Origin: an uncultured Bacillales bacterium | Lineage (GTDB): Bacteria; Bacillota_I; Bacilli_A; RF39; UBA660 | DNA length: 64,000 nt | Assembly (NCBI GenBank): GCA_947571655.1 | Contig: CANOYR010000003.1 | Coordinates: 3,408 to 67,407, forward strand | Direction: 5' to 3' | Shown: in pieces, positions 7,447 through 53,238 of the stretch | Numbering within the stretch: position 1 is the first letter of the stretch | How the letters are laid out: every line of letters starts with the position of its first letter | The notes under the pieces: generated by a model | Told to the model about the DNA's origin: nothing | The model's database searches: none | The model's input: only the letters and a program-made list of their open reading frames with translations | Made by a program: the position numbers and the translations under genes

Positions 7447-7552
7447 CTAATATAGTGTATGAAAATGGGAAATGATTGTTTCCAAAAAGGACAAGTTAAA
7501 AAAATTTTTAAAAATAGTATGAAAATTGCAAAAGTGTGATATACTAAAAGTG

Positions 7553-7733
7553 TCTAAGAAATGCGAAACAGTCACATATAAAACCGACTAATATGACGAT
7601 ACGGGAGTCTTGATCAGTAATCTGTGTTGAATGCCTTTCCTTTTGGTAAAGGAATCCTAAGGGTTACGTATGGACACCCACCTGTAAAAATGCAGGTTTT
7701 ATCGCCGACTGAACCGCTTTCTTGGACTTTTTA
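7553..7733 (+). ncRNA. ssrS: Candidate 6S RNA (SsrS-like)
   Basis: An extended -10 (TGATATACT, 7537-7545) is followed by a ~180-nt noncoding segment. Its 5-prime end (AAGAAAGCG..CAGTC, 7557-7575) pairs with its 3-prime end (GACTG..CGCTTTCTT, 7706-7722) around a bulge, and a U-run follows. It lies directly upstream of a tcdA/yrvM-like gene, as B. subtilis 6S-1 does. Confidence 0.4.
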
Positions 7734-28099: not shown

Positions 28100-28315
28100 G
28101 GAAAGTATATCTGAAAAGCGAAGAAAAAGAGGAGTATGATAAGAGATTCTTTTTTAGAGAACTAGGGGTAGGTGAAACCTAGTAAAGAACCTTATAGGAA
28201 GCTACTTTGGAGTGAAATAATCCGGAGAAATCCGTTATCCAAAATAAGATCTAACAAGGATGGTACCGTGATTATTCGCTCCTGTTTAGGTCTTTTAATT
28301 TATGTAAAAGGAGAA
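28100..28315 (+). promoter_or_regulatory. T-box leader (alanine specifier) preceding the dNMP-kinase-like ORF and alaS
   Basis: AGAGA box at ~28158, a stem-loop CTAGGggtaggtgaaaCCTAG, a GCU-A candidate specifier at ~28204, and an AGTGA element. The T-box core AAGGATGGTACCGTG (28258-28272) carries UGGU, which would pair with the A73 discriminator of tRNA-Ala. A stem and U-run follow. Confidence 0.45.
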
Positions 28316-46125: not shown

Positions 46126-46269
46126 AAGGTGAATAGGAAGCTATGGATGATAGTTTCCTTTTTAATTTAGAGAATAGGTTTTGTTAAAACTTATGAAATA
46201 AAAAAGTTTTCTTGAATTTTTGTTAAAAGTGTTGTAAACTAATCATAGATTCTTAGAAAGAAGAGTAAC

Positions 46270-46460
46270 GAAATTTCTTTTTTTAGAGAGGATATGGTTG
46301 GTGAAAATATCTATTAGAAATGAGTGAAGACACTTTCTATTAAAAGAAACGTAATTCTGCGTTAAAGAAGATAAGCATAAGTAATTATGGAAATAAGGTG
46401 GCACCACGAATTGATATTCGTCCTTTGTAGTGTTACCTTTTTCTTTTTAATCAAGAAAGG
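46270..46460 (+). promoter_or_regulatory. T-box leader of the hisS-aspS operon
   Basis: AGAGA at 46286, GGTGAAA and AGTGAAGACAC elements, and a GACAC specifier region at ~46329-46333. The T-box core AATAAGGTGGCACCACG is at 46391-46407. A terminator stem AAGGTGGCAC/GTGTTACCTT is followed by a U-run. Confidence 0.6.
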
Positions 46461-46469
46461 AAGAAGAAT

Positions 46470-47831
46470 ATGATAATAAAACAAAAAGGATGTCATGATA
46501 TTTATGGATTAGAAGCAAAAAAATGGAATTATGTATCTCAAGTAATTGATGCTGTTTGTGAAAGATATCATTATGATTTTATTCGTACTCCAATTTTTGA
46601 AGCAAGTGAACTATTTCATCGTAGTATTGGGGAAGAAACAGATGTCGTTCGTAAAGAGATGTATGATTTTAAGGATAAGGGAAATCGTGACATTACTCTA
46701 AGACCAGAGGGAACAGCAGGAGTAATCCGAAGCTATATTGAAAATAAAATGTATGGTGATTCTGTACAACCTGTGAAGCTATATTATAATGGAACGATGT
46801 ATCGATATGAGCGTCCACAATCTGGAAGAGATCGGGAACTTACTCAATTTGGAGTTGAAGTTTTAGGAAGTGATGATCCAATGATTGATGCGGAGGTTAT
46901 TTCTCTTGCTGTTAATATTTATAAAATTTTGGGGTTAAAAGGAATTAAAGTAAATATTAATTCTTTGGGAGATCAAGAGTCGAGAGATAATTATCGAAAG
47001 GTCTTGATTGATTACTTTACTCCATATGTGAATGAATTGTGTGAAGATTGTAAGATCCGCTTAGAAAAAAATCCACTTCGTATCTTAGATTGTAAGATAG
47101 ATTGTCAATTAGAAATTATGAAGAATGCTCCTATTATAGTAGATTATTTAAATGAAGAGAGTAAGAAGCGATTTTTGGCTGTTCAAAAGTATTTAGATTT
47201 ATTAGATATTGAATATGAAGTTAATCCATCGATTGTCCGAGGATTAGATTATTATAATCATACGGTATTTGAAATTGAGGCAGATATTGAAGATTTTGGT
47301 AGTCAAAATGTGTTAGGTGGTGGTGGAAGGTATAATCATTTGGTATCGCAACTTGGAGGTCCAGAAACTCCTGGAATTGGGTTTGCGATGGGAATTGGAC
47401 GCCTTATTCTTGCTTTAGAAAAAGAAGAAATTCAATTGCCAATAGAGGAAGGAATTGATGTATTCGTAATGTATGTATCTGATACAGAGAAAGAATATGC
47501 GGTTACTCTAGTTCAAGAACTTCGTATGAATGGATTTAAAGCAGAAACAGAATATATGAATCGAGGTTTAAAAGGACAGTTTAAGCAAGCAGACCGTTTG
47601 AAAAGTAAATTTTTAATTTTGTTAAATGATGAAGAATTAAAGGAAAATCAAATAAAAATAAAAAATAATCAGACTAAGGAAGAGAATTTTATAGAGCTTG
47701 ATTATATTCTATATTACTTAGATGAGCAACTTTCCTCTTTTGAAGAGAGTGATTGTAATTGTGGACATCATCATGAAGAGGGACATCATTGTCATTGCCA
47801 ACATAAAGATGATGGAGAAATTAATTTTTAA
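46470..47831 (+). CDS. hisS: Histidine--tRNA ligase with His/Cys-rich C-terminal tail
   Basis: Class II aaRS motifs and anticodon-binding domain. The additional C-terminal tail reads ...ESDCNCGHHHEEGHHCHCQHKDDGEINF. Confidence 0.9.
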   Translation: MIIKQKGCHDIYGLEAKKWNYVSQVIDAVCERYHYDFIRTPIFEASELFHRSIGEETDVVRKEMYDFKDKGNRDITLRPEGTAGVIRSYIENKMYGDSVQPVKLYYNGTMYRYERPQSGRDRELTQFGVEVLGSDDPMIDAEVISLAVNIYKILGLKGIKVNINSLGDQESRDNYRKVLIDYFTPYVNELCEDCKIRLEKNPLRILDCKIDCQLEIMKNAPIIVDYLNEESKKRFLAVQKYLDLLDIEYEVNPSIVRGLDYYNHTVFEIEADIEDFGSQNVLGGGGRYNHLVSQLGGPETPGIGFAMGIGRLILALEKEEIQLPIEEGIDVFVMYVSDTEKEYAVTLVQELRMNGFKAETEYMNRGLKGQFKQADRLKSKFLILLNDEELKENQIKIKNNQTKEENFIELDYILYYLDEQLSSFEESDCNCGHHHEEGHHCHCQHKDDGEINF

Positions 47832-47848: not shown

Positions 47849-49600
47849 ATGAAGAAATATAACAATGTACAGTTTAATATAAAAAATGTAGGAGAATCTG
47901 TAGTTTTAGAAGGTTGGGTAGCGAAAAAAAGAAATCTTGGGGGATTAATCTTTTTGGATTTAAGGGATCGTTCAGGGATTATACAGTTGGTGGTACGACC
48001 AGGGCAAAAAGATTATGAATTAGCAAGTGGTTTGAAAACGGAATCAGTAATTAGAGCGAAGGGAAAAATTCTAGAAAGAGAAAGTAAAAATTTAAAAATT
48101 CCAACAGGAGAGATTGAGGTAATTGTCGATGAATTAGAAATTTTTAGTATCGCACATGATCTTCCTTTTGAAATTAGTGATGATACAACGGCATTAGAAG
48201 ATACTAGGCTTAAATATCGTTATTTGGATTTACGAAGAACAAACTTAAAAAAGAATTTAATTGCACGAAGTCAATTAATGCATATTATTCGGAATTTCTT
48301 TTATGAAGAGGGCTTTATAGAAGTAGAAACTCCTATTCTTTGTAAATCTACACCAGAAGGAGCTAGGGATTATCTGGTTCCATCGCGAATAAATCATGGT
48401 AGTTTTTATGCACTTCCTCAGTCTCCTCAAATTTTTAAACAATTATTAATGATTGGTGGAATGGAAAAATACTTTCAAATTGCAAAGTGTTTTCGTGATG
48501 AAGATTTAAGATCAGATCGTCAACCAGAGTTTACACAAGTTGATTTGGAAATGAGTTTTGTAGAGGAGGAAGATGTAATTTCTACAACAGAAAGATTGCT
48601 TGCTAAAGTGTTTAAAGAAATGAAGGGAATTCAATTAACTCTTCCACTTTCTAGAATGAAATATGATGATGCAATTAGAGATTATGGTACTGATCAACCA
48701 GATTTACGTTATGATATGAAAATTCAAAGCTTAAATGAATTATTTAAGAAAACAGAATTTTTAGTTTTCCAAAATATTTTAAAATCTGGAGGAGAAATTG
48801 GATGTATTCTTGTAAAGAATAGTGCAGATAAGTATTCTAGAAAAGAAATTGACAAGTTAGCAGATTTTATGAAGACATATCAGGTAAGTGGAATTTCTTG
48901 GTTAAAGTATATTGATTCTGATTTTTCTGGAAGTATTCGCAAGGTGTTATCGGATGAAGAGTTGAGTGGATTAAAGAATCAATTAAATATTGAAGAAAAT
49001 GATATGCTTTTTATTGTTGCTGATAAGTATGGAATAACAAAAACTTCTCTCGGTGCTTTACGAATTCGATTGGCTCATGAATTGGGTCTTGTGAAAAGAG
49101 GAGATTATCAATTTACGTGGATTGTTGATTTTCCATCTTTTGAGTATAGTGAAGAAGAAAGTCGGTATGTTGCTTGTCATCATCCATTTACAGCACCAAA
49201 AGATACCGATATTGATAAATTGTTAAATGATAAATCAAATTGTTATTCTAAGGCTTATGATATTGTCATTAATGGTTATGAAGCTGGAGGAGGAAGTATC
49301 CGTATTCATCAGGCAGAGGTTCAAAAAAAGATGTTTGAGGCTTTGGGTTTTACTTTAGAGCAAGCAAAGGAAAAATTTGGCTTTTTTCTAGAAGCATTTG
49401 ATTATGGTACTCCTCCCCATGGTGGTCTTGCTTTAGGATTGGATCGATTAACAATGCTTTTAGTAGAAACAGAAAATATTCGAGATGTAATTGCTTTTCC
49501 AAAGACTACTAGTGCTTCTTGCTTGATGAGTGAGTGCCCAAATAGGGTGGATCAAAAGCAATTAGATGAGTTGGAAATATCAGTAGTAGAAAAAGACTAA
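47849..49600 (+). CDS. aspS: Aspartate--tRNA ligase
   Basis: N-terminal OB anticodon-binding domain, class II motifs (FRDEDLR, GGGSIRIH, GLDRL) and a GAD insertion. Confidence 0.9.
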   Translation: MKKYNNVQFNIKNVGESVVLEGWVAKKRNLGGLIFLDLRDRSGIIQLVVRPGQKDYELASGLKTESVIRAKGKILERESKNLKIPTGEIEVIVDELEIFSIAHDLPFEISDDTTALEDTRLKYRYLDLRRTNLKKNLIARSQLMHIIRNFFYEEGFIEVETPILCKSTPEGARDYLVPSRINHGSFYALPQSPQIFKQLLMIGGMEKYFQIAKCFRDEDLRSDRQPEFTQVDLEMSFVEEEDVISTTERLLAKVFKEMKGIQLTLPLSRMKYDDAIRDYGTDQPDLRYDMKIQSLNELFKKTEFLVFQNILKSGGEIGCILVKNSADKYSRKEIDKLADFMKTYQVSGISWLKYIDSDFSGSIRKVLSDEELSGLKNQLNIEENDMLFIVADKYGITKTSLGALRIRLAHELGLVKRGDYQFTWIVDFPSFEYSEEESRYVACHHPFTAPKDTDIDKLLNDKSNCYSKAYDIVINGYEAGGGSIRIHQAEVQKKMFEALGFTLEQAKEKFGFFLEAFDYGTPPHGGLALGLDRLTMLLVETENIRDVIAFPKTTSASCLMSECPNRVDQKQLDELEISVVEKD

Positions 49601-49650: not shown

Positions 49651-51228
49651 TGTCAATTTTTTTTAAAAATGTCAGTAAAATCGTTTTGAGAAAATGTCAG
49701 TTTGAAGTATAGTCATAGTAAGATCAAAAGATCAATTTTTGATGTGAGAAGATTATACTTCTTTTCTTTGTTAGTCAAGAATCAAGATAAACGACTGAAG
49801 TCGTCCTTGACTAACAACCATGATTTAGACAATAGTACATATTACTGTGAGAAGTAATAGGAGGTAACCCTTTTCTCCAAGGGGGATTTATAGATTTATG
49901 AGTTTTAGAAGAGTTAATATTGGAACTAGATTTCGTTATTTTGATATTTCTTTTTAACGAGGTATTAAAGTCTTTAACGGTATGTAAGTCATACCAAGTA
50001 TCATTAAATAAAATATGTTCAGTACCATCAAGAAATGTATATACTCTAACAGATTTGCTAGTTGGGAGATATACTTTCTCATTATTTTTTAATATTACAT
50101 GATAGACTTTATTGTATTTTAAGTAGGAATTATGAAATACCTTATGCTCACTCCAAACAGCTAATTGTTTGTTATAATCAAAATCATTGTCTAGACATAT
50201 GAAATGATTTTTGGTATTATCAATAGGAAGAGCGAATCTAGCGTTGTATTTGGGGATAAAGACATCGTTTAAGTATTGATTTGCCTCTTCAATTGTATGT
50301 ATGTGTTTCTTTTTGAGCTCTTTATATAAACGATCTTGAAAAGTTCTCCATAGTCTTTCAATCCTGCCTTTAGCACGTGGATTGATAGAAATAATATCTG
50401 TTCCAATATGTTCTAACATATTAGCGAAACGGGTATTTTTTATTTGTTTACCTTGAAGTTCGTCTTCTAAGGTTAACTCCTTTTTAGGAGATTTAAAAAC
50501 GGTTCTATAATCGGTATATAGATATTCAGGAATGCCATAGTTTTGAATTGTTTGTTTCATAATCATTTGATATCCGAAAATAGTTTCTTCTTTATCAAAG
50601 AAACAAGAGGTTACAGTACCAGTGGAATCATCGATTCCACCATGAAGATAGTAATATTTATCATCACCATAGAACCATTGGTGTTTCGATGCATCAACTT
50701 GAATTAATTCTCCAGCATATTCTTTTCTTTCTCTAGGAGGATAAGATTTTTTATGTTTTTTATATTTATGAGGAGATTCAATACCATTAGAAGTAAGAAG
50801 GTTATAAATAAAAGAATCAGAAACTATAATTTTGTGATAATCTTCTAAAATGTCATTAAAATGGTAGAAATTCCAACCTTCATATTCTTTATGATACAGA
50901 TCTATAATTTTATTTTTTAGTTCTTCTGAATATCCACGATGAGTGGATCTATTTCTATTTTTATGAGAAATACTTTTAATGCCATCTTTTAAGTAAGCCT
51001 TTTTCTTTCTATATATTTGTCTTTTAGATAGACCAGTTAATCTTGATACATCTGATATATTAATTTCGTTGGCAAGTAATTTTATTAAAATATTATTAAT
51101 TCTTTCTTCTTTCATATTTAATGTAATCCTTTCATTCATTTTGATTGCTCCCTTCCTAAGGAGCATATTATACCACTTACTGCCATTTTTAAAAAATGAT
51201 ATATACTGACATTATCACAAAATGATTA
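49651..51228 (-). mobile_element. Insertion sequence (~1.58 kb), DDE transposase, ISNCY/IS1202-like
   Basis: A single transposase ORF. The imperfect terminal inverted repeats start TGTCAATTTTTTTTAAAAATGTCAGTA (left) and TGTAATCATTTTGTGATAATGTCAGTA (reverse complement of the right end). An 18-bp direct repeat flanks it. It sits between the aspS terminator and the tRNA promoter. Confidence 0.5.
49811..51139 (-). CDS. DDE (rve integrase-core) transposase
   Basis: N-terminal HTH (ISDVSRLTGLSKRQIYR). DDE core: IQVDASKH...HGGIDDSTG...LYTDYRTVF...E. The start is MNERITL, after the RBS ggaagggag. Confidence 0.7.
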   Translation of the reverse strand: MNERITLNMKEERINNILIKLLANEINISDVSRLTGLSKRQIYRKKKAYLKDGIKSISHKNRNRSTHRGYSEELKNKIIDLYHKEYEGWNFYHFNDILEDYHKIIVSDSFIYNLLTSNGIESPHKYKKHKKSYPPRERKEYAGELIQVDASKHQWFYGDDKYYYLHGGIDDSTGTVTSCFFDKEETIFGYQMIMKQTIQNYGIPEYLYTDYRTVFKSPKKELTLEDELQGKQIKNTRFANMLEHIGTDIISINPRAKGRIERLWRTFQDRLYKELKKKHIHTIEEANQYLNDVFIPKYNARFALPIDNTKNHFICLDNDFDYNKQLAVWSEHKVFHNSYLKYNKVYHVILKNNEKVYLPTSKSVRVYTFLDGTEHILFNDTWYDLHTVKDFNTSLKRNIKITKSSSNINSSKTHKSINPPWRKGLPPITSHSNMYYCLNHGC

Positions 51229-51246
51229 CAATTATTTAAAGTTTTT
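51229..51246. repeat. Right copy of the 18-bp direct repeat flanking the IS
   Basis: ATTATTTAAAGTTTTTCT is identical to 49633-49650. Confidence 0.55.
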
Positions 51247-51325
51247 CTTGCATTTTTATTCATTTTGTAGTAGAATAATGCATACCTTGTATAAGAATCG
51301 GAAAGTAGCAAAGGGGGTTACATCA

Positions 51326-51745
51326 ATGAATTCTTCTTATATATTTGAATACCAAAATGAAAACGAGTTTAAGGTAAAGGAGAGAACTTTACGAAAGTAT
51401 AATATGATTGCATATAAGGAACTTGTCTTTAAAGATTATCCTGCACTAAGAAATGGGAAATTTTTAGGTAATTTAGTCTCTGAAAATAAAGAGGAAAAGA
51501 TTAAAAGTTATGAATTAGAATTGCCAAGTGATGATTCGTTTAAAAAAGTTCATGGAAATGTATATTTGCATTATACAGTTTATGAAATTGGCAAAGTAGT
51601 ATTATTAACAAATATTAGTCCAGATGAAATCTTGGAAGAAGCTCATCGTACTGAGCTTCCTACTTATAAGGGAGTATTGATTTCTAAAAGCAATCCTCAA
51701 AAAGATATTTTTAAGGTGAATTTGTTAAATATGTTGAATAAATAA
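51326..51745 (+). CDS. Hypothetical protein (orphan ORF between IS and tRNA promoter)
   Basis: RBS aaagggggt precedes ATG 51326. The 139-aa product has no recognised motif. Confidence 0.3.
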   Translation: MNSSYIFEYQNENEFKVKERTLRKYNMIAYKELVFKDYPALRNGKFLGNLVSENKEEKIKSYELELPSDDSFKKVHGNVYLHYTVYEIGKVVLLTNISPDEILEEAHRTELPTYKGVLISKSNPQKDIFKVNLLNMLNK

Positions 51746-51765
51746 AAGTAAAATCAAAAAAAATA

Positions 51766-51794
51766 TTGCAACAATTGTAAAAATATGTTACTAT
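51766..51794 (+). promoter_or_regulatory. Sigma-A-type promoter for the tRNA pair
   Basis: TTGCAA, a 17-nt spacer, then TACTAT, about 12 nt before the tRNA 5-prime end. Confidence 0.45.
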
Positions 51795-51806
51795 TAAAAA
51801 GTCGAT

Positions 51807-51883
51807 GGACCCTTAGCTCAGTTGGTTAGAGCATTCGGCTCATAACCGAACGGTCGATGGTTCGAGTCCATCAGGGTCCACCA
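51807..51883 (+). tRNA. tRNA-Met (anticodon CAT; could alternatively be tRNA-Ile2/k2C)
   Basis: 77-nt cloverleaf with 7-bp acceptor GGACCCT/AGGGTCC, D-arm GCTC-AGTTGGTTA-GAGC, anticodon loop CTCATAA, T-arm GGTTCGAGTCC, and encoded CCA. Confidence 0.85.
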
Positions 51884-51891
51884 CAAAATAT

Positions 51892-51976
51892 GCGGGTATG
51901 GCGGAATTGGCAGACGCACTAGACTTAGGATCTAGCGCCGCAAGGCTTGCAGGTTCAACTCCTGTTACCCGCACCA
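51892..51976 (+). tRNA. tRNA-Leu (anticodon TAG), class II with long variable arm
   Basis: GCGGGTATGGCGGAATTGGCAGACGC...anticodon loop CTTAGGA...variable arm...GGTTCAACTCCTGTTACCCGCACCA. Confidence 0.85.
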
Positions 51977-51988
51977 ATCGACATATAG

Positions 51989-52010
51989 CCCTTGATTTTC
52001 AAGGGTTTTT
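51989..52010 (+). terminator. Intrinsic terminator after the tRNA pair
   Basis: CCCTTG-atttt-CAAGGG followed by TTTTT. It overlaps the integrase stop codon. Confidence 0.5.
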
Positions 52011-53238
52011 ATATGCCCAAAATTATCTCTGGTCTTGTTTTGGTCTTGTTACTATTCTTTATTTCATCAATATAACTAATACTATCGAAATAATCTTTAG
52101 GAATCAAATGAATATATGTTTTCATTGTTTCATCAACGCTGGAGTGACGTAATCGCTTTGAAACTACCGTAATTGGCAGTTTTAATGATATTAACCAAGA
52201 GGCAAAAGAATGGCGAAAATCGTGTAATCTAAAGTTTCCTTGAGTAATATTTGTTTTCTTCAAATATTTATTTACAGCATTACAGAGTGAATTCTCAGAT
52301 ATTGGTTCATCTTTACCAAATATAAACCATGTTTCTTTAAAGTTAGGATCTTTCATACAAATTAACTTCCATTGGTGTATTTTCTCATTTAATTGTTTAT
52401 CTAGAGGCATTACATCTTTAGAAGATGGTGTTTTTGGATCTTTTAAATATCTTTTTTGTCCTTTCTTTTTTTTACTCATTGTATGATTTACAGTTAGAGT
52501 AGAATTTTCATAAGAATAATCTATCCATCTAAAGGCCATTAATTCTCCCGGTCTAGGCCCATTTGAGTAAAACAAATCAAAGATAGTATGATATTTATCA
52601 TCTTTTTTCGTTACTTCTAATAGTTTTAAATACTGTTCATAGGAAATTATATTGTATTTTTTTTCTTTTCTTTGATTAGCAATCATCTTTTTAGTGCCAA
52701 ACTTTCCGACTTTTCTAATTGGATTAGTCACAATTAACTCATTACTAACCGCAAATTCATACATCGCATTTACATAAGAATGTATTGCGTTTAAAAAAGA
52801 AAGTGAGTATTTTTTTTCTTTTTTTCCTCGAATGTATGTGGAATCTATTTTTTTGTCTTGCCATTGCTTATATTTGTCGCTAGTGTATGATATTATTTTT
52901 TTTACTCCTTCAGTTGGTAAAAAATGTTGTTCTAATCTGTTTTCAATAATCATTAAGCTATCATCATCTATTTTATGTTTTTTTGATTCTATGTACATCT
53001 TGAAAAGTTCATTATTGTTTATTTTTCTTACACCATTTGTAGATAATTGATTTTTATTATTGCTTAGTTCTTTAATAGCGTTTTCATATCCTTCTTTACC
53101 TAACCACATATTTCCATGATTGTCTAATCTTTTTGTAATCTGTTTTCCATTTACATAGGGTCTAATATAATATCTCGTTTGTCCATTTACTTTTTCTGGA
53201 TATTCATAAATAGGTATTGTTTTCTTTGATTTTGGCAT
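52009..53238 (-). CDS. int: Tyrosine site-specific integrase
   Basis: C-terminal catalytic domain with R...HDFRHSFAS...RLRHSSVDETMKTYIHL (R-H-R-Y). Confidence 0.85.
   Translation of the reverse strand: MPKSKKTIPIYEYPEKVNGQTRYYIRPYVNGKQITKRLDNHGNMWLGKEGYENAIKELSNNKNQLSTNGVRKINNNELFKMYIESKKHKIDDDSLMIIENRLEQHFLPTEGVKKIISYTSDKYKQWQDKKIDSTYIRGKKEKKYSLSFLNAIHSYVNAMYEFAVSNELIVTNPIRKVGKFGTKKMIANQRKEKKYNIISYEQYLKLLEVTKKDDKYHTIFDLFYSNGPRPGELMAFRWIDYSYENSTLTVNHTMSKKKKGQKRYLKDPKTPSSKDVMPLDKQLNEKIHQWKLICMKDPNFKETWFIFGKDEPISENSLCNAVNKYLKKTNITQGNFRLHDFRHSFASWLISLKLPITVVSKRLRHSSVDETMKTYIHLIPKDYFDSISYIDEIKNSNKTKTRPEIILGI

What the first reader, a model, noticed from the sequence alone, without database searches (positions are those of the whole stretch)
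46270..46460. hisS-aspS T-box with overlapping GAC/CAC specifier register and a discriminator-pairing base that fits tRNA-Asp rather than tRNA-His
The leader has a clear T-box core, AAGGTGGCACCACG, plus a terminator. The variable bulge base is C (UGGC), which would pair with a G73 discriminator. That is characteristic of tRNA-Asp, whereas bacterial tRNA-His has C73. The specifier region reads GAAGACACUUU, so GAC followed by A (Asp) and CAC followed by U (His) overlap by two nucleotides. A single leader controlling hisS-aspS could therefore read either or both tRNAs.
Basis: partly seen in the sequence, partly recalled or inferred. Interest (0 to 1): 0.6.

Follow-up and report, generated by a model that had tools for sequence, protein, structure and literature searches.

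The report
Aspartate-sensing T-box leader of hisS-aspS
This is an ordinary tRNA-sensing T-box riboswitch in front of the hisS-aspS operon that reads tRNA-Asp; the overlapping histidine codon is a by-product of normal T-box architecture and is already in the literature.

Summary
Rfam's T-box model matches window 46249-46428 (93.1 bits, E 4e-19). A terminator follows (46395-46439 plus a U tract), then hisS and aspS.

The structural alignment fixes the register as GAA|GAC|A|helix. GAC (Asp) sits in the canonical specifier slot, A46332 is the conserved purine, and the last C of "CAC" (C46333) pairs with G46260 as the first pair of the basal Stem I helix.

In 51 leaders from relatives:
- GAC is invariant.
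- That closing pair covaries (G-C 25, A-U 26, never broken).
- The +2 triplet drifts: CAC 24, CAU 25, CGY 2.

The +2 triplet is CCU or CUU in Brevibacillus and Paenibacillus hisS-aspS leaders. CAU also occurs in an aspS-only leader. About 1 in 8 unrelated T-boxes (Thr, Tyr, Asn, Ser) carry the same incidental CAY.

The bulge base is C or U in every Asp leader, which fits G73. A true His T-box has A.

The GACAC motif of hisS-aspS leaders was described by Gutiérrez-Preciado et al. 2009, as reported in PMC5313534, and assigned mainly to tRNA-Asp.

Verdict: a known kind, Asp-specific, with no support for dual sensing. Low interest.

The parts
46212..46240 (+). Putative sigma-70 promoter: TTGAAT, 17-nt spacer, TAAACT
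   Evidence: Read from the sequence. It scores 8 of 12, below the scanner's cut-off, so one search does not list it. Relatives carry TATAAT-like boxes at the same distance from the leader. Inferred.
46249..46428 (+). T-box leader RNA: Stem I, Stem IIA/B region, Stem III and antiterminator
   Evidence: Rfam RF00230, 93.1 bits, E 4.4e-19, full-length match.
46254..46260 (+). 5' strand of the basal Stem I helix (UAGAAAG). G46260 pairs with C46333.
   Evidence: Rfam alignment. Covariation in 51 leaders: all seven pairs of the helix show double changes, and the four pairs nearest the specifier loop are never broken (the parse that selected the leaders required those four); closing pair G-C 25, A-U 26, 0 unpaired.
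46261..46267 (+). 5' side of the specifier loop with the S-turn motif (AAGAGUA)
   Evidence: AGUA is invariant in alignment A2. It matches the Rfam consensus AaaAGUA.
46285..46307 (+). Distal Stem I: AGAGA bulge (46285-46289) and distal loop GGUUGGUGAAAA, flanked by helix 46290-46295 / 46307-46312. This is the platform for the tRNA elbow.
   Evidence: The motifs are invariant or nearly so in A2. The distal helix is 98.7% paired with double changes in all 6 pairs. The elbow-binding role comes from established T-box structures (PMC7583486).
46326..46332 (+). 3' side of the specifier loop: GAA (46326-46328), specifier GAC = Asp (46329-46331), conserved purine A46332
   Evidence: Rfam alignment columns with high posterior probability. 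GAC occurs in 51 of 51 relatives; the next base is A in 49 and G in 2. Bacillus, Listeria, Brevibacillus and Paenibacillus leaders use the same register.
46333..46339 (+). 3' strand of the basal Stem I helix (CUUUCUA). C46333 is the third base of the supposed CAC.
46349..46364 (+). Stem IIA/B-like element (ACGUAAUUCUGCGUUA). Stem II itself is absent.
   Evidence: Rfam alignment: model positions for Stem II are deleted and the CG...CGUUA element is retained.
46375..46390 (+). Stem III
   Evidence: Rfam alignment. MFE hairpin CAUAA/UUAUG.
46395..46425 (+). Antiterminator with the T-box sequence (46395-46408) and the 7-nt bulge UGGCACC (46399-46405). C46402 lies opposite the tRNA discriminator.
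   Evidence: Rfam alignment. The bulge base is C in 48 and U in 3 of 51 relatives.
46395..46448 (+). Intrinsic terminator: hairpin 46395-46439 followed by UUUUCUUUUU. It is mutually exclusive with the antiterminator.
   Evidence: dG -16.9 kcal/mol, z -4.45, 0 of 200 shuffles fold as well. It is also present in the MFE fold of the whole leader.
46470..47831 (+). hisS (histidyl-tRNA synthetase, 453 aa)
   Evidence: ORF. Homologues carry Pfam tRNA-synt_His and HGTP_anticodon domains.
47849..49600 (+). aspS (aspartyl-tRNA synthetase, 583 aa), 17 nt after hisS with no terminator between them
   Evidence: ORF. Pfam tRNA_anti-codon, tRNA-synt_2 and GAD on the identical gene in L001. Terminator scan.

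Best explanation
This is a canonical transcription-attenuating T-box riboswitch specific for tRNA-Asp (anticodon GUC), and it controls the hisS-aspS operon.

Proposed mechanism:
1. Stem I presents GAC (46329-46331) at the 3' end of the specifier loop, stacked on the conserved purine A46332.
2. The distal Stem I platform binds the tRNA elbow.
3. If the tRNA is uncharged, its 3' G73-C-C-A pairs with U-G-G-C (46399-46402) in the T-box bulge.
4. That pairing stabilises the antiterminator (46395-46425), so RNA polymerase reads through into hisS and aspS.
5. If the tRNA is charged, the more stable terminator (46395-46439 plus the U tract) forms instead.

The CAC that overlaps GAC by two bases is not a second specifier. 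It consists of the third codon base (C, the usual T-box preference), the conserved purine (A) and the first pyrimidine of the basal helix.

Shown here: the family match, the register, helix covariation, conservation of GAC and of UGGY, and the terminator. Inferred from the established T-box mechanism: tRNA binding and charge-dependent read-through.
For: **Family and register**
- Rfam T-box match with a full-length alignment that places GAC, A and the helix in the canonical columns.
- The same register appears in Bacillus, Listeria, Brevibacillus and Paenibacillus hisS-aspS leaders.
- TBDB defines the default specifier as nucleotides 2-4 from the 3' end of the specifier bulge, which is GAC here. 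CAC lies outside even its -1/+1 alternative frames (PMC7778990).

**51 lineage leaders**
- GAC in 51 of 51; the following base is a purine in 51 of 51.
- Closing pair G-C 25, A-U 26, no unpaired cells and no one-sided changes. Sliding the partner by one column drops pairing from 90.5% to about 45%.

**Bulge base**
- C in 48 and U in 3 relatives; both pair with G73.
- C, U, C and C in the four outgroup leaders.
- U in an aspS-only leader.
- tRNA-Asp of Bacillus badius ends ...GGACC-G-CCA.

**Terminator**
- dG -16.9 kcal/mol, z -4.45.

**The overlap is generic**
- The Rfam consensus reads ...GAAauucaCC..., with a conserved C after the purine.
- The third codon base is overwhelmingly C in T-boxes (PMC7583486, PMC7778990).
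- The Ala T-box in the same window reads GCU-A-C, which by the same logic would give an overlapping Tyr UAC.
- In a metagenome sample of 40 T-boxes the closing pair is purine:pyrimidine in 35. CAY occupies the +2 frame in 5, which are Thr, Tyr, Asp, Asn and Ser leaders.

**Literature**
- GACAC is called a characteristic of hisS-aspS T-boxes and is assigned mainly to tRNA-Asp (PMC5313534, citing Gutiérrez-Preciado et al. 2009).
Against: - No experiment exists for this leader.
- CAY survives in the +2 frame of 49 of 51 lineage leaders. Sequence alone therefore cannot exclude occasional tRNA-His pairing if the closing pair breathes.
- An Asp-only sensor leaves hisS with no detected histidine-responsive control. 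That is a known oddity of this operon.
- One paper labels the S. aureus hisS-aspS leader a "histidine T-box" (PMC7927825).
- This genome's own tRNA-Asp and tRNA-His genes are not in the window or in any fetched locus of relatives. Their discriminators are assumed from the general bacterial rule and from other Bacilli.
- The isolated Stem I does not fold to the canonical shape by MFE. The structure rests on the covariance model and on covariation.
Confidence: 0.88

Rival explanations
1. Dual-specificity leader. The same Stem I reads tRNA-Asp through GAC and tRNA-His through CAC after the G46260-C46333 closing pair opens. Shortage of either charged tRNA would then induce hisS-aspS, by analogy with the two-codon Asn/Glu T-box of Clostridium acetobutylicum.
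For: - GACAC is present.
- CAY, which is still a His codon, is kept in 49 of 51 lineage leaders and in Bacillus and Listeria.
- The operon encodes both synthetases.
- A two-codon T-box binding two tRNAs has experimental precedent (Saad et al. 2013, as summarised in PMC4052509).
- True His T-boxes do not need a discriminator match (PMC7778990; UGGA), so UGGC does not by itself forbid tRNA-His.
Against: - The third base of CAC is a covarying helix base, never unpaired in 51 leaders.
- The +2 triplet is followed by a pyrimidine in all 51, not by the conserved purine.
- CAC and CAU are about 1:1, whereas functional two-codon-family specifiers use one codon in more than 85% of cases and favour a 3' C (PMC7778990). 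GAC is 51 of 51.
- The +2 triplet is CGY in 2 relatives (a third, L047, reads GACGU but fell outside the 51-leader set), CAG in L049, CCU in Brevibacillus and CUU in Paenibacillus.
- An aspS-only leader has the same GACAU.
- The same incidental CAY occurs in Thr, Tyr, Asn and Ser T-boxes.
- The bona fide His T-box places CAC directly before the purine and the helix.
Confidence: 0.06
2. His-specific T-box. CAC is the real specifier and GAC is incidental.
For: - hisS is the first gene of the operon.
- One paper calls the S. aureus hisS-aspS leader a histidine T-box (PMC7927825).
Against: - All the register and covariation evidence above applies.
- GAC is invariant while the +2 triplet varies.
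- The bulge base is C or U, matching G73, whereas the verified His T-box has A.
- Brevibacillus and Paenibacillus leaders have no His codon at all in that frame.
Confidence: 0.02
3. A decaying or non-functional leader remnant in a reduced genome. It lacks the K-turn and Stem II and only just reaches Rfam's threshold.
For: - The score is 93.1 against a gathering score of 93, and the K-turn and Stem II columns are deleted.
- Some relatives have lost the leader.
- One relative (L084) has a degenerate core and no GAC.
Against: - All functional motifs are intact and conserved across about 50 species-level relatives, with compensatory changes in the helices.
- The terminator is strong.
- The Ala T-box in the same window also lacks Stem II, so Stem II-less T-boxes are not unique to this leader.
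Confidence: 0.04

Closest known systems
hisS-aspS T-box leaders of Bacillales and Lactobacillales (GACAC specifier region; Gutiérrez-Preciado et al. 2009 as cited in PMC5313534)
   Same: - Same operon and same GAA-(N)-GAC-A-C arrangement.
- Same UGGC or UGGU bulge and the same terminator/antiterminator logic. This was verified here for Bacillus sp. N5-665 and Listeria monocytogenes with the Rfam model.
   Different: - This leader is shorter, 180 nt against about 230.
- It lacks the K-turn at the base of Stem I and lacks Stem II.
- It comes from an uncultured gut Bacilli lineage with genomes of about 1.3 Mb.
Two-codon T-box of Clostridium acetobutylicum that binds tRNA-Asn and tRNA-Glu (Saad et al. 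2013, summarised in PMC4052509)
   Same: Two codons overlap near the specifier position upstream of genes that serve two amino acids.
   Different: - Here the second triplet extends into the basal helix, is not followed by a purine and is not conserved as a codon.
- Nothing indicates that a second tRNA binds.
His-specific T-box of the histidine-decarboxylase-cluster hisS (Tetragenococcus pHDC plasmids; L. buchneri type, PMC5313534)
   Same: It is a T-box in front of a hisS gene.
   Different: - There CAC occupies the canonical slot, directly before the purine and the helix.
- Its bulge is UGGA and no aspS follows.
- The window leader has GAC in that slot and a UGGC bulge.
glyQS-type T-boxes without Stem II (PMC7583486)
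   Same: Stem II is absent and the leader is compact.
   Different: - Different specificity.
- glyQS leaders keep the K-turn, whereas this one has lost it.

Membership tests
T-box leader (Rfam RF00230) | Covariance-model score at or above the curated gathering score | tested here: met
   93.1 bits against 93, E 4.4e-19, model positions 1-219. The margin is narrow because the K-turn and Stem II columns are deleted.
T-box leader (Rfam RF00230) | Stem I specifier loop: S-turn (AGUA and GAA), then a trinucleotide followed by a purine at the 3' end of the loop, closed by a helix | tested here: met
   AAGAGUA lies at 46261-46267 and GAA-GAC-A at 46326-46332. The basal helix 46254-46260 / 46333-46339 covaries.
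T-box leader (Rfam RF00230) | Distal Stem I motifs (AG bulge and distal loop) that dock the tRNA elbow | tested here: met
   AGAGA and GGUUGGUGAAAA are present and nearly invariant in 51 relatives. The flanking helix is 98.7% paired. Docking itself was not tested.
T-box leader (Rfam RF00230) | Conserved T-box sequence forming an antiterminator with the 7-nt bulge UGGNACC | tested here: met
   AAGGUGGCACCACG lies at 46395-46408. The helices flanking the bulge align to the model.
T-box leader (Rfam RF00230) | Competing intrinsic terminator that overlaps the 3' half of the antiterminator | tested here: met
   Hairpin 46395-46439 plus a U tract, dG -16.9 kcal/mol, z -4.45.
T-box leader (Rfam RF00230) | K-turn (GA motif) at the base of Stem I, and Stem II with its S-turn. 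These are common but not universal. | tested here: not met
   Model positions 9-14 and 99-101 (K-turn) and about 106-132 (Stem II) are deleted. Stem II is likewise absent from well-studied glycyl T-boxes (PMC7583486), so its absence is not disqualifying.
T-box leader (Rfam RF00230) | Located upstream of aminoacyl-tRNA synthetase or amino-acid genes that match the specifier | tested here: met
   hisS-aspS lie downstream. The GAC specifier matches aspS.
T-box leader (Rfam RF00230) | Binding of uncharged cognate tRNA causes read-through | not testable with these tools
   This needs in vitro transcription or reporter assays.
Asp-specific T-box | The bulge base N of UGGN can pair with the discriminator of the tRNA named by the specifier | tested here: met
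   N is C here, and C in 48 and U in 3 relatives. tRNA-Asp has G73 in B. badius. This genome's own tRNA-Asp was not available.
Two-codon (dual-tRNA) T-box | Both candidate codons lie unpaired within the specifier loop | tested here: not met
   C46333 of CAC is the first base of the basal helix. The pair is G-C 25 and A-U 26, with 0 unpaired in 51 leaders.
Two-codon (dual-tRNA) T-box | The second codon is conserved as a codon across orthologous leaders | tested here: not met
   The +2 triplet is CAC 24, CAU 25 and CGY 2 in the lineage. It is CAG in L049, CCU in Brevibacillus and CUU in Paenibacillus.
Two-codon (dual-tRNA) T-box | Both tRNAs bind and promote antitermination | not testable with these tools
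   This needs biochemistry.

The most novel reading that the evidence does not exclude
The leader is primarily an Asp sensor, but transient opening of the G46260-C46333 (or A-U) closing pair lets tRNA-His(GUG) pair with CAY. This would give hisS-aspS a weak second input from histidine charging: a 2-nt register-shifted dual T-box shared by many Bacilli.
Probability: 0.05. Interest if true: 0.55.

Novelty: already known. Interest (0 to 1): 0.12.

Why it matters
Very little changes. The result confirms that a gut-associated, uncultured Bacilli lineage with a small genome still regulates hisS-aspS with a standard tRNA-Asp T-box, in a trimmed form without the K-turn or Stem II.

The useful general point concerns annotation. 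Because T-box codons usually end in C, are followed by a purine, and are closed by a purine:pyrimidine pair, an apparent overlapping CAY or NAY codon is expected in many T-boxes. It should not be read as dual specificity without evidence.

If the dual reading were nevertheless true, it would explain how hisS senses histidine in this widespread operon.

Tried and rejected
- **Primary papers.** I tried to read Gutiérrez-Preciado et al. 2009, Vitreschak et al. 2008 and Saad et al. 2013. None is held. Their content is cited only through PMC5313534, PMC4052509, PMC7778990 and PMC7583486.
- **This lineage's tRNAs.** I looked for tRNA-His and tRNA-Asp in the window and in all 80 loci from relatives. 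Only Met, Leu and Ser genes turned up. Discriminators were therefore checked in other Bacilli instead: B. badius, L. fermentum and a Tetragenococcus plasmid.
- **Clostridia comparison.** Monoglobus and Acetoanaerobium hisS have no T-box at E <= 0.001.
- **Second His T-box.** The L. reuteri HDC-cluster hisS leader is not recognised by Rfam at E <= 0.1, so it was not used. L205 looks like a His leader (CAC-A, UGGU) but scores only 58.9 bits and its downstream gene is cut off. It was not counted.
- **First parser.** My first motif parser picked wrong helices and was replaced. The general metagenome sample rests on that heuristic parser, restricted to 40 high-confidence leaders. Most codon/bulge-base pairs in it match the discriminators recalled for those tRNAs, but it is not a covariance-model alignment.
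- **Own covariance model.** I considered building one. It was unnecessary because the invariant AGUA and GAC anchors fix the columns.
- **Folding.** MFE folding of Stem I alone does not recover the canonical fold in this AU-rich sequence, so it was not used as evidence.

Full report
**1. What is there**

Rfam's T-box covariance model (RF00230) matches window 46249-46428 on the + strand over its full length, at 93.1 bits (gathering score 93) and E 4.4e-19.
- AAGGTGGCACCACG at 46395-46408, with UGGC at 46399-46402 and the variable bulge base C46402.
- GAAGACACTTT at 46326-46336.

A hairpin at 46395-46439 is followed by UUUUCUUUUU. It folds at -16.9 kcal/mol with z -4.45, and none of 200 shuffles folds as well. 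It overlaps the antiterminator, as a T-box terminator should.

Downstream lie hisS (46470-47831) and aspS (47849-49600). They are 17 nt apart with no terminator between them. The upstream gene has its own terminator at 46135-46159. A weak promoter-like TTGAAT-17-TAAACT lies at 46212-46240; I read this from the sequence and it is inferred. The element spans about 46249-46448.

**2. Register of the specifier**

The Rfam alignment places GAA at 46326-46328, GAC in the codon columns (46329-46331), A46332 in the conserved-purine column and C46333 in the first paired column of the basal Stem I helix. All have high posterior probability. C46333 pairs with G46260, and the helix is UAGAAAG/CUUUCUA (46254-46260 / 46333-46339).

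TBDB defines the default specifier as nucleotides 2-4 counted from the 3' end of the specifier bulge and considers only -1 and +1 alternatives (PMC7778990). By that rule the specifier is GAC. CAC would be a +2 frame that reaches into the helix. [quoted passage not shown]

**3. Comparative test in the lineage**

The HisRS protein identifies the source as an uncultured gut "Bacilli bacterium" lineage. Relatives include Clostridium sp. CAG:710 and Candidatus Faecimonas, and one closed relative is 1.31 Mb.

I fetched 80 species-level hisS loci. About 65 carry a T-box upstream. Fifty-one non-identical leaders could be parsed and aligned using the invariant AGUA and GAC anchors. Results:

| Feature | Count |
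|---|---|
| GAC in the canonical slot | 51 of 51 |
| Next base | A 49, G 2 |
| Closing pair of the basal helix (alignment columns 7 and 86) | G-C 25, A-U 26, no unpaired cell, no one-sided change |
| Second and third pairs | never broken |
| +2 triplet | CAC 24, CAU 25, CGC 1, CGU 1 |
| Base after the +2 triplet | pyrimidine in all 51 |
| Bulge base | C 48, U 3 |

Sliding the 3' partners by one column drops pairing from 90.5% to about 45%.

The parser required four pairs, so I checked the three hisS leaders it rejected (L014, L050, L074). For L014 and L074, the two whose specifier region is visible, the closing pair is kept and the break lies further down the helix. L050's leader lies about 500 nt upstream of hisS and its specifier region was never displayed, so its closing pair is not confirmed.

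Functional specifiers of two-codon families use one codon in more than 85% of cases and favour a 3' C (PMC7778990). The canonical frame behaves that way: GAC and never GAU. The +2 frame behaves like a neutral covarying helix base.

**4. Outgroups with the curated model**

| Leader | Specifier region | Bulge |
|---|---|---|
| Bacillus sp. N5-665 | GAA-U-GAC-A-C | UGGC |
| Listeria monocytogenes hisS-aspS | GAA-AA-GAC-A-C | UGGU |
| Brevibacillus laterosporus hisS-aspS | GAC-C-U (+2 triplet CCU) | UGGC |
| Paenibacillus cellulosilyticus | GAC-U-U (+2 triplet CUU) | UGGC |
| Metagenomic leader directly before aspS alone (L176, 139.9 bits) | GAC-A-U | UGGU |

The overlapping His codon is therefore absent from some hisS-aspS leaders and present where no hisS is regulated.

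The one bona fide His T-box I could verify is the hisS of the histidine-decarboxylase cluster on Tetragenococcus plasmid pHDC. It puts CAC directly before the purine and the helix, and its bulge is UGGA.

**5. Is the overlap more than chance?**

No.
- The Rfam consensus itself reads GAAauucaCC, with a conserved C after the purine.
- The third codon base of T-boxes is overwhelmingly C (PMC7583486).

I also sampled 40 unrelated T-boxes from metagenomes (pattern TAGGGTGGNACCGCG; heuristic parse):
- The closing pair is purine:pyrimidine in 35.
- The codon ends in C in 25.
- CAY occupies the +2 frame in 5. These are leaders with ACC (Thr), UAC (Tyr), GAC (Asp), AAC (Asn) and UCC (Ser).

Most codon/bulge-base pairs in that sample fit the usual discriminators as I recall them: Trp with C or U, most Gly and Thr with A, Tyr, Phe, Ala and Leu with U. 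One GGC leader has U. The Trp pattern is also stated by TBDB (PMC7778990). This supports the parse, but the parse is not a covariance-model alignment.

**6. Discriminator base**

- tRNA-Asp of Bacillus badius ends GGACC-G-CCA, so it has G73.
- tRNA-His of B. badius, L. fermentum and the Tetragenococcus plasmid has a genome-encoded G-1 and C73.

C or U in the bulge therefore fits tRNA-Asp.

It is weaker as an argument against tRNA-His. C73 is paired with G-1, TBDB does not use the discriminator for His T-boxes (PMC7778990), and the verified His T-box has A opposite C73.

This genome's own tRNA-Asp and tRNA-His genes could not be reached.

**7. Mechanism**

- Shown: family membership, register, covarying Stem I helices, invariant GAC, UGGY, and a mutually exclusive terminator and antiterminator.
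- Inferred from the established T-box mechanism (PMC4052509, PMC7583486): uncharged tRNA-Asp binds by anticodon and elbow to Stem I and by its 3' GCCA to UGGC. This stabilises the antiterminator and allows transcription of hisS-aspS. Charged tRNA-Asp cannot pair there, so the terminator forms.

I put this explanation at 0.88. The alternatives are dual Asp/His reading at about 0.06, His-only reading at about 0.02 and a decaying non-functional remnant at about 0.04.

**8. Comparison with what is known, and novelty**

T-box-controlled hisS-aspS operons are described for bacilli and lactobacilli. PMC5313534 states that GACAC in the specifier loop is a characteristic of these T-boxes and that Gutiérrez-Preciado et al. 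(2009) suggested it mainly interacts with tRNA-Asp.

The experimentally supported two-codon T-box (Saad et al. 2013, via PMC4052509) is a precedent for dual sensing. The window leader fails the two defining features I could test: both codons unpaired in the loop, and the second codon conserved.

The only departures from the textbook leader are loss of the K-turn and of Stem II. Loss of Stem II is a known kind of reduction (PMC7583486).

Novelty: already known. Interest: low.

**9. Open point**

An Asp-only sensor leaves hisS without a detected histidine input. One paper loosely calls the S. aureus leader a histidine T-box (PMC7927825). Only antitermination assays with both tRNAs and helix-preserving mutants that destroy CAY can close the residual 5% case.

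Noticed in passing
window 47740-47828 (C-terminus of hisS): This HisRS ends in a Cys/His-rich tail (...DCNCGHHHEEGHHCHCQHKDDGEINF). The tail is conserved as C/H-rich in relatives (A1 consensus, C441 invariant). It lies 17 nt upstream of the aspS start. It may bind metal, or the cluster of His codons may couple aspS translation to histidine supply. This is speculation.
   Followed up: no
window 28112-28286 (+): A second T-box leader is present (96.6 bits). Its specifier is GCU (Ala) and its bulge is UGGU. It keeps the K-turn but also lacks Stem II. I used it as an internal control: it shows an incidental UAC in the +2 frame.
   Followed up: partly
L049 9040-9175 and L073 9845-9975: Two relatives carry a hisS leader with an ultrashort Stem I, a 5-6 bp hairpin (GUAAG/CUUAC or AUAAGA/UCUUAU) with GAC-A in the apical loop. 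Rfam matches only the Stem III and antiterminator half of the L049 leader (36.8 bits); L073 was not scanned. The U tract is preceded by a helix that pairs the 5' flank of Stem III (AAAGAGC) with GGCUCUUU, instead of a canonical terminator. Short-Stem-I T-boxes are known (PMC7583486); I recall them mainly from actinobacterial translational ileS leaders, so this form in Bacilli may deserve a look.
   Followed up: partly
L084 1194-1400: One relative has a degenerate leader. Its T-box core is AAGGUAGCACC (UAGC instead of UGGC), and its specifier region GAAAGAACUUA has lost GAC. This is probably a decaying riboswitch.
   Followed up: no
L008, L010, L020, L022, L024, L035, L045, L055, L064, L069, L075, L078, L080; also L029, L040, L050: About 13 of 80 relatives have no T-box upstream of hisS. 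In L029, L040 and L050 the T-box lies about 500-650 nt upstream, which suggests an extra ORF between the leader and hisS.
   Followed up: no
window 46440-46461: In the MFE fold of the leader, the terminator U tract pairs with the purine-rich ribosome-binding region AAGAAAGGA of hisS. This may be incidental in AU-rich sequence, or it may be a second, translational layer of control.
   Followed up: no
window 7548-7732 (+): A 6S RNA gene is present (Rfam RF00013, 62.7 bits).
   Followed up: no
window 49811-53238: A transposase-like ORF (49811-51166, - strand) and an integrase-like ORF (52009-53238, - strand) flank tRNA-Met and tRNA-Leu (51807-51976). This suggests a mobile element integrated next to the tRNA genes downstream of aspS. 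The Met-Leu tRNA pair follows aspS in the closest relatives.
   Followed up: no
L085 4787-4862 (-): The Tetragenococcus pHDC plasmid carries its own tRNA-His (GUG, G-1:C73). It sits next to the His-T-box-controlled hisS and the histidine decarboxylase genes.
   Followed up: partly
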